From the NCBI RefSeq assembly GCF_054482595.1, contig NZ_CM137008.1: a stretch of DNA of 64,000 bases; one strand, written 5' to 3'. Below are positions 8,494-8,564 of the stretch, in pieces. The position numbers were made by a program, and so were the translations under genes. The notes under the pieces were generated by a model that saw only the letters and a list, made by a program, of their open reading frames with translations, had not been told where the DNA came from and did no database searches. The stretch's first letter is position 1; each line of letters begins with the position of its first letter.

Positions 8494-8564
8494 GGGGGAA
8501 GTAACCTGTTGAAAGTACGGTGAACTCCCCCTCACCCTAACCCTCTCCCCAAAGGGGCGAGGGG
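8494..8564. terminator. GC-rich inverted-repeat element between convergent hemB and tauD, candidate bidirectional terminator
   Basis: Two hairpins: GGGGGAAGT...ACTCCCCC and CCCTCTCCCC-AAA-GGGGCGAGGGG; no clear U-tract. Confidence 0.35.

What the first reader, a model, noticed from the sequence alone, without database searches (positions are those of the whole stretch)
8494..8564. GC-rich double hairpin between convergent hemB and tauD
Two stable inverted repeats (G5/C5-based and CCCTCTCCCC/GGGGCGAGGGG) lie in a 106-bp gap between convergent genes. The motif style suggests a small repetitive palindromic element rather than a classic U-tract terminator.
Basis: seen in the sequence. Interest (0 to 1): 0.2.

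Follow-up and report, generated by a model that had tools for sequence, protein, structure and literature searches.

The report
Known BoxC repeat between hemB and tauD
The GC-rich "double hairpin" between hemB and tauD is the already catalogued E. coli BoxC repeat (also called PIT or TMECO triplex motif) plus a weak hairpin in adjacent single-copy DNA, so it is ordinary.

Summary
A 106-bp gap (8475-8580) separates convergent hemB (+) and tauD (-). It contains two inverted repeats, each about -17 kcal/mol as RNA (z about -2.6 to -2.8).

Window 8528-8563 on the minus strand reads CCCTCGCCCCTTTGGGGAGAGGGTTAGGGTGAGGGG. This matches exactly the three-block BoxC/PIT/TMECO consensus of Holder et al. 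2015 (PMC4666352), type A with one mismatch. That paper lists this same locus in K-12 as TMECO no. 5, 17 nt from tauD.

- "Hairpin 2" is the pairing of blocks 1 and 2 of the motif.
- The C5 arm of "hairpin 1" is the tip of block 3.
- The rest of hairpin 1 (8475-8526) is single-copy DNA.

The repeat core occurs at a median of 17 places per E. coli genome. About 3600 of 5426 genomes carry the BoxC allele. Another 1820, including UTI89, CFT073 and ST131, carry an unrelated 39-bp gap with one perfect hairpin. E. albertii and E. whittamii also have that short gap, so the BoxC allele is derived.

There is no U-tract terminator. Published data place a Rho-dependent termination region about 250 nt past the hemB stop. 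The feature is already known and of low interest.

The parts
8528..8563 (-). 36-nt BoxC / PIT / TMECO core, type A with one mismatched triplet: CCCTCGCCCCTTTGGGGAGAGGGTTAGGGTGAGGGG
   Evidence: It matches the consensus CCCTCNCCC-N3-6-GGGNGAGGG-N3-GGGNGAGGG exactly (consensus from PMC4666352). It is identical to K-12 TMECO nos. 7, 11 and 15. It is orthologous to no. 5, the tauD/hemB copy, from which it differs by one loop base.
8555..8563 (-). Block 1 (CCCTCGCCC), the pyrimidine block.
8541..8549 (-). Block 2 (GGGAGAGGG). It forms the Watson-Crick hairpin with block 1 across the loop CTTTG, with one G.A mismatch.
8529..8537 (-). Block 3 (GGGTGAGGG), the mirror repeat of block 2 after the TTA loop. 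It is the third strand of the published purine-motif triplex.
   Evidence: (pair I2). The triplex model is from PMC4666352.
8511..8582 (-). Extent of similarity to the full BoxC unit (core plus flanks). The flank GACCGTCC at 8564-8571 fits the family consensus. The opposite flank is divergent.
   Evidence: An nhmmer profile built from 14 other K-12 type-A copies hits here only, E 7e-18, 59.7 bits.
8493..8532 (+). Hairpin 1: an imperfect stem between locus-specific DNA and the BoxC edge
   Evidence: -17.0 kcal/mol, z -2.6. The stem varies among alleles.
8475..8526 (.). Single-copy part of the derived 'long' intergenic allele, present only where the BoxC copy is present
   Evidence: 1 place per genome, found in 3592 of 5426 genomes.
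7467..8474 (+). hemB (porphobilinogen synthase). The RefSeq-style start would be 7500.
8581..9432 (-). tauD (taurine dioxygenase)

Best explanation
The feature is the hemB-tauD copy of the E. coli BoxC repeat, also called PIT element or TMECO intrastrand-triplex motif. It sits in about 70 bp of single-copy DNA that belongs to the same derived intergenic allele.

Shown here:
- The sequence fits the three-block consensus exactly.
- The family is dispersed at about 17 copies per genome.
- This locus is the catalogued K-12 TMECO no. 5.
- Hairpin 1 is a locus-specific pairing with the G5/C5 tip of block 3.
- The BoxC-bearing gap replaced an ancestral 39-bp gap that held one perfect hairpin.

From the literature: the G-rich strand folds into a stable purine-motif intrastrand triplex as an isolated oligonucleotide. 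The triplex is not detectable in duplex DNA or in vivo. PIT elements showed no promoter or terminator activity. Loci that carry them are unusually variable between strains.

Inferred: the element has no dedicated role in ending hemB or tauD transcription. hemB transcripts read through it and are stopped by Rho further downstream. The element persists as a near-neutral repeat that spreads or is homogenised by recombination. Transient folding of the single strands during replication or repair promotes local indels. That would account for the three length classes of this gap: 39, 105-106 and 157 or more bp.
For: - Consensus match and identity to K-12 copies.
- Same locus listed in Supplementary Table S2 of PMC4666352, 17 nt from tauD and 51 nt from hemB. 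The 17-nt spacing is reproduced in the window and in NC_000913.3.
- Copy number.
- Profile hit: E 7e-18, the only significant hit in 64 kb.
- Hairpin 1 is single-copy.
- Alleles: alignment A1; about 3600 long; 1820 short; 239 genomes with an extra 51-bp unit.
- Outgroups with the short allele: E. albertii, E. whittamii, Escherichia sp. MOD1-EC7003.
- No terminator-like site in the gap.
- Rho termination region at MG1655 388499 on the hemB strand, Rho score 3.8, and no Term-seq 3' end listed in the gap: PMC7815308.
- Triplex in vitro, none in vivo, no promoter or terminator activity, excess variability of these loci: PMC4666352.
Against: - No function has been demonstrated for any BoxC copy, so 'near-neutral' is a default rather than a result.
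- The instability link in the literature is correlative.
- The short and long gaps share no sequence, so simple insertion or excision of the element does not explain the polymorphism.
- Six of the 15 K-12 loci inspected lie between convergent genes. This is compatible with some 3'-end role such as protection from exonucleases, which I could not test.
- The Rho data have coarse resolution (800-nt windows) and come from K-12, not from this strain.
Confidence: 0.85

Rival explanations
1. The two hairpins act as a bidirectional transcription terminator, or as a 3'-end stabiliser like REP elements, for the convergent hemB and tauD mRNAs.
For: - The position is exactly between two stop codons.
- Each hairpin is about -17 kcal/mol as RNA on either strand.
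- The ancestral allele also holds a hairpin here, -16.7 kcal/mol, z -4.0, so a stem-loop in this gap may be under selection.
- Six of 15 K-12 BoxC loci lie between convergent genes.
Against: - No U-tract follows either stem on either strand, and there is no terminator-like hit in the gap.
- PIT elements showed no terminator activity in reporter assays, as cited in PMC4666352.
- K-12 data show Rho-dependent read-through control on the hemB strand centred 254 nt past the stop, and no curated Term-seq 3' end in the gap.
- The hairpin 1 stem is not conserved, and hairpin 2 carries a conserved mismatch rather than compensatory changes.
Confidence: 0.1
2. The C-rich strand of BoxC lies in the hemB 3' UTR and contributes a rut-like Rho loading site. 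On this view the allele swap exchanged a hairpin-type 3' end for Rho-dependent termination.
For: - On the + strand, 8500-8640 has a C/G ratio of 1.7-2.4 with 15-20 YC dimers per 60 nt. The 95th percentile of 60-nt windows across the 64-kb window is 2.0.
- There is a Rho termination region downstream of hemB in K-12.
Against: - Half of the C-rich stretch is predicted to be paired with the GGGGCGAGGGG block, and rut sites are normally unstructured.
- The C-richness continues into the antisense of tauD, so BoxC is not needed to explain it.
- BoxC copies occur in both orientations relative to neighbouring genes.
- There is no direct test.
Confidence: 0.04
3. It is a miniature mobile element (MITE-like) that inserted into the gap.
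For: - The family is multi-copy, dispersed and intergenic.
- The allele is derived relative to the outgroups.
- Related elements occupy the same gap in Pseudocitrobacter.
Against: - No terminal inverted repeats or target-site duplication are visible around 24 aligned copies.
- The whole gap differs between alleles, including about 70 bp of single-copy DNA, so this is not a clean insertion.
- The literature found no association with transposons, phages or plasmids. Only 51 of 85,623 places are on plasmids.
Confidence: 0.05

Closest known systems
BoxC repeat of E. coli K-12 (Bachellier and colleagues; 56 bp, 32-33 annotated copies), also known as PIT element (Hoyne, Maher et al. 2000) and TMECO (Holder et al. 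2015, PMC4666352)
   Same: The 36-nt core matches exactly and is identical to three K-12 copies. It is orthologous to K-12 TMECO no. 5, with the same 17-nt spacing from tauD. It is intergenic and multi-copy. The GGTC flank is conserved.
   Different: Nothing essential differs. There is one loop base change relative to the K-12 orthologue. The flank on the hemB side departs from the family consensus GAACAGGCC.GCAC.
REP / BIME (PU) elements of enterobacteria
   Same: Both are short, GC-rich, dispersed extragenic repeats, often found after gene 3' ends and capable of forming hairpins. Citrobacter species carry GCCGGATG-type palindromes in the same hemB-tauD gap.
   Different: The window gap has no GCCGGATG/CATCCGGC core. 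The architecture is three blocks with mirror symmetry rather than a simple palindrome. No RAYT-type transposase link is known (from my own knowledge).
Rho-independent (intrinsic) terminator
   Same: A GC-rich stem-loop directly downstream of a stop codon.
   Different: There is no U-tract on either strand. Published reporter tests of PIT elements were negative. hemB read-through is Rho-controlled in K-12.

Membership tests
BoxC / PIT / TMECO | Sequence fits 5'-CCCTCNCCC N3-6 GGGNGAGGG N3 GGGNGAGGG-3' | tested here: met
   Exact match on the minus strand at 8529-8563, plus the trailing G at 8528. The consensus is quoted from PMC4666352.
BoxC / PIT / TMECO | Dispersed, multi-copy in the E. coli chromosome | tested here: met
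   Median 17 and maximum 32 places per genome in 5413 of 5426 genomes. The repeated part is query positions about 52-97.
BoxC / PIT / TMECO | Intergenic location | tested here: met
   It lies in the 106-bp gap between the hemB and tauD stop codons.
BoxC / PIT / TMECO | Similarity to other copies extends into the flanks (the full unit is about 51-59 bp) | tested here: met
   A profile of 14 other K-12 type-A copies aligns to 8582-8511, E 7e-18. The tauD-side flank GACCGTCC is conserved and the hemB-side flank only weakly. Unit lengths come from PMC5172473 and PMC2267715.
BoxC / PIT / TMECO | Orthology to a catalogued copy | tested here: met
   K-12 TMECO no. 5 at 388664-388699 lies between tauD and hemB.
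BoxC / PIT / TMECO | The G-rich strand folds into an intrastrand purine-motif triplex | not testable with these tools
   CD and NMR evidence is published for oligonucleotides of type A 'mm', the class to which this sequence belongs. The triplex was not seen in duplex DNA or in vivo.
Intrinsic terminator | GC-rich stem followed within 0-2 nt by a run of U | tested here: not met
   The terminator scan finds nothing in 8475-8580. The tails after the stems are ACCGUCCA, CACCCUAA (+ strand) and UUAGGGUG (- strand).
REP / BIME | REP consensus core (GCCGGATG... / ...CATCCGGC) in palindromic units | tested here: not met
   The core is absent from the gap sequence. For contrast, it is present in the Citrobacter orthologous gaps.

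The most novel reading that the evidence does not exclude
The BoxC-bearing gap is a derived intergenic cassette that replaced an ancestral simple hairpin between hemB and tauD. In doing so it changed how hemB transcription ends. The C-rich BoxC strand in the hemB 3' UTR would serve as part of a Rho loading site, so that BoxC copies would be a dispersed source of Rho-dependent 3'-end signals.
Probability: 0.05. Interest if true: 0.4.

Novelty: already known. Interest (0 to 1): 0.1.

Why it matters
The finding matters little in itself. The element, its family and this particular copy are already in the literature, and the family has resisted functional assignment for about 30 years.

The locus is nevertheless a clean natural experiment. 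About one third of E. coli genomes keep the ancestral 39-bp hairpin gap, about two thirds carry the BoxC gap, and about 4% carry it with an added 51-bp unit. Isogenic allele swaps at this locus could test whether BoxC affects 3'-end formation, Rho dependence or local mutation rate.

Tried and rejected
- Rfam scan of 8000-9000 at E up to 10 gave only sub-threshold chance hits: Antizyme_FSE, RgsA, BLV_package.
- The promoter and terminator scan found nothing in the gap.
- A search for further copies in the 64-kb window found none. The nhmmer secondary hits at 20090-20112 and 24458-24480 have E 2.5-3.5 and are chance.
- I considered that hairpin 1 might be part of the repeat or the remnant of a second, inverted BoxC, as in the paired K-12 loci. 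I rejected the first idea because 8475-8526 is single-copy. The second is unsupported, because the 5' arm shows no block structure.
- I looked for compensatory changes that would support an RNA structure. Hairpin 2 carries a conserved mismatch in 15 of the 23 K-12 copies (types A mm and B mm). The hairpin 1 changes among alleles are not compensatory.
- I looked for target-site duplications or terminal inverted repeats around the aligned copies and found none.
- The Dar and Sorek 2018 supplementary data are not held as text. A literature search for newer functional work on BoxC/PIT returned only the 2015 paper. The 'boxC' hit in PMC12844172 was not in its main text.

Full report
**Observation.** The window carries hemB as the ORF 7467..8474 on the + strand and tauD as 8581..9432 on the - strand. 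RefSeq annotation of identical and near-identical loci confirms both names. The gap 8475-8580 is 106 bp.

It contains an imperfect inverted repeat with arms 8493-8506 and 8519-8532 (14 nt, 79% complementary). It also contains the pair CCCTCTCCCC (8541-8550) and GGGGCGAGGGG (8554-8564), which folds as 5+4 base pairs around one mismatch.

As RNA the two hairpins fold at -17.0 and -17.2 kcal/mol (z -2.6 and -2.8). The values on the other strand are similar. As DNA, the hairpin-1 segment and the 41-nt segment holding hairpin 2 each fold at -8.2 kcal/mol. The whole gap is barely better than shuffled sequence, with z -1.67 and -0.61.

**What it is.** The purine block also pairs with a second pyrimidine block, CCCCTCACCC at 8528-8537, at 90% complementarity. 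Read on the minus strand, 8563..8528 is CCCTCGCCC-CTTTG-GGGAGAGGG-TTA-GGGTGAGGG-G.

This fits exactly the consensus 5'-CCCTCNCCC N3-6 GGGNGAGGG N3 GGGNGAGGG-3' that Holder et al. 2015 (PMC4666352) give for the E. coli triplex motif TMECO. The same element was described earlier as the BoxC repeat and as the PIT element.

The window sequence is identical to K-12 copies nos. 7, 11 and 15 of their Table 1. It differs by one loop base from no. 5 (388664-388699). Their Supplementary Table S2 places no. 5 between tauD (17 nt away) and hemB (51 nt away). In the window the element is likewise 17 nt from the tauD stop. NC_000913.3 confirms the K-12 coordinates. This exact locus is therefore already catalogued.

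**Repetitiveness.**
- The 106-bp gap finds a median of 17 and up to 32 places per genome in 5413 of 5426 complete E. coli genomes. The recurrent part is query positions about 52-97.
- The left half of the gap (8475-8526) holds the 5' arm and loop of hairpin 1. It occurs once per genome, and only in 3592 genomes.
- I aligned the window copy with 22 of the 23 K-12 copies (16 were fetched and used here). The conserved unit extends from the core into a GGTC-containing flank, which in the window is GACCGTCC at 8564-8571. On the other side it extends into a looser GAACAGGCC.GCAC flank, which the hemB-tauD copy matches poorly.
- A profile built from 14 other type-A copies hits the window once, at 8582-8511, E 7e-18.
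- BoxC is recorded as a 51-59 bp unit with 32-33 annotated copies in K-12.

The "double hairpin" is therefore one BoxC unit plus a fortuitous or locus-specific pairing of neighbouring single-copy DNA with the G5/C5 tip of block 3 of BoxC.

**Evolution of the locus.** E. coli genomes fall into three classes.
- About 3600 carry the 105-106 bp BoxC gap, including K-12, O157:H7 and the window.
- 1820 carry a 39-bp gap, TGATCATTATGCCGGGTTATCCAACCCGGCATTTCCCCC. These include UTI89, CFT073 and an O25b:H4-ST131 strain. I know these three as phylogroup B2 strains; that assignment is my own knowledge and was not tested here. This gap shares nothing with the long allele between the two stop codons. It holds a perfect 10-bp hairpin, -16.7 kcal/mol, z -4.0.
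- 239 of the long-allele genomes carry an additional 51-bp unit next to the BoxC.

A degenerate-pattern scan for the hemB 3' end across species representatives shows the short gap in E. albertii, E. whittamii and Escherichia sp. MOD1-EC7003. The short gap is therefore ancestral in Escherichia and the BoxC gap is derived.

Escherichia sp. E1V33 has a 203-bp version. It has a perfect 9-bp hairpin 1 stem, a BoxC that lacks most of block 3, and 2.5 tandem 51-bp units. Pseudocitrobacter species carry an inverted pair of BoxC-type elements in the same gap, and Citrobacter species carry REP-like palindromes there.

This pattern agrees with the published observation that TMECO loci are unusually variable between strains. 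It is not a clean insertion, because single-copy DNA came with the element.

**Function.** No hairpin is followed by a U-tract, and the terminator scan finds nothing in the gap. According to PMC4666352:
- PIT elements showed no promoter or terminator activity in earlier reporter work.
- The G-rich strand forms a stable triplex as an oligonucleotide, but not in duplex DNA or in vivo by DMS footprinting.

Adams et al. 2021 (PMC7815308) list a Rho termination region in MG1655 at 388499 on the minus (hemB) strand. That is 254 nt past the hemB stop and antisense to tauD. The Rho score is 3.8 and p is 2e-9. The downstream/upstream read ratio is 33/86 untreated and 213/146 with bicyclomycin. No curated Term-seq 3' end lies at 3884xx-3887xx.

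Within the coarse resolution of that method, hemB transcripts pass the element and are ended by Rho. On the + strand, 8500-8640 is C-rich, with a C/G ratio of 1.7-2.4 against a window-wide 95th percentile of 2.0. That is compatible with Rho loading but does not single out BoxC.

Hairpin 2 carries a mismatch that is conserved in most copies rather than compensated. The changes in hairpin 1 among alleles are not compensatory. Neither stem therefore shows evidence of selection for pairing.

**Conclusion.** It is a known element at a known locus. The most likely account is a near-neutral dispersed repeat whose single strands can fold transiently and promote local rearrangement, with no dedicated role in hemB or tauD expression. 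A role in 3'-end protection or in Rho loading cannot be excluded with these tools and is given low probability.

Noticed in passing
L002 about 490-540; L091 3579-3706: A 51-bp unit (CGAGGGGACCGTCCGCACTCGTTTCATCTAAATCACCGTTCTTTCGCCGCC) is tandemly added beside the BoxC in the hemB-tauD gap. It starts with the BoxC flank. One extra unit is present in 239 of 5426 E. coli genomes, including E. coli C and NCTC122. Escherichia sp. E1V33 has 2.5 copies. The unit occurs at this one locus only.
   Followed up: partly
L001 401-439: The alternative 39-bp hemB-tauD gap holds a perfect 10-bp hairpin, ATGCCGGGTT/AACCCGGCAT. It is present in 1820 E. coli genomes (UTI89, CFT073, ST131) and in E. albertii and E. 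whittamii. It is the ancestral state and has no U-tract either.
   Followed up: yes
L028, L029, L073 (downstream of the hemB stop): Pseudocitrobacter species carry BoxC-type three-block elements, as an inverted type A / type B pair in L029 and L073, in the same hemB-tauD gap. Citrobacter species instead carry GCCGGATG-type REP-like palindromes there. The same gap is thus occupied by different repeat families in different genera.
   Followed up: partly
L094 versus L093: A contig labelled Chryseobacterium sp. 18061 carries an enterobacterial hemB-tauD locus whose gap is almost identical to that of Citrobacter sp. 18056 from the same study. This is probably contamination or a labelling error in the public assembly.
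   Followed up: no
L090 (downstream of the hemB stop): In Escherichia sp. MOD1-EC7003, only a remnant of tauD of about 40 codons follows the short-allele hairpin. The rest of tauD appears to be deleted.
   Followed up: no
window 8275-8780: The window's version of this region is rare. Only 18-21 of 5426 genomes match at 99% or more, for example strains Combat11I9 and XH990. Most long-allele genomes are 92-94% identical in the gap and 95-97% over the 506 bp including the coding ends. The region comes from a divergent lineage or a recombined tract.
   Followed up: no
window 8500-8640, + strand: A C-rich, G-poor stretch runs from the BoxC into the antisense of the tauD 3' end, with a C/G ratio of 1.7-2.4. 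It coincides with the published Rho termination region downstream of hemB in K-12.
   Followed up: partly
L017 about 76-105 (K-12 yjdP-phnP gap): A degenerate two-block BoxC-like hairpin (CCCCTCACCCCAATGGGGAGAGGG) lies about 40 nt upstream of the intact TMECO no. 22. It is an example of the decayed copies mentioned in the literature.
   Followed up: no
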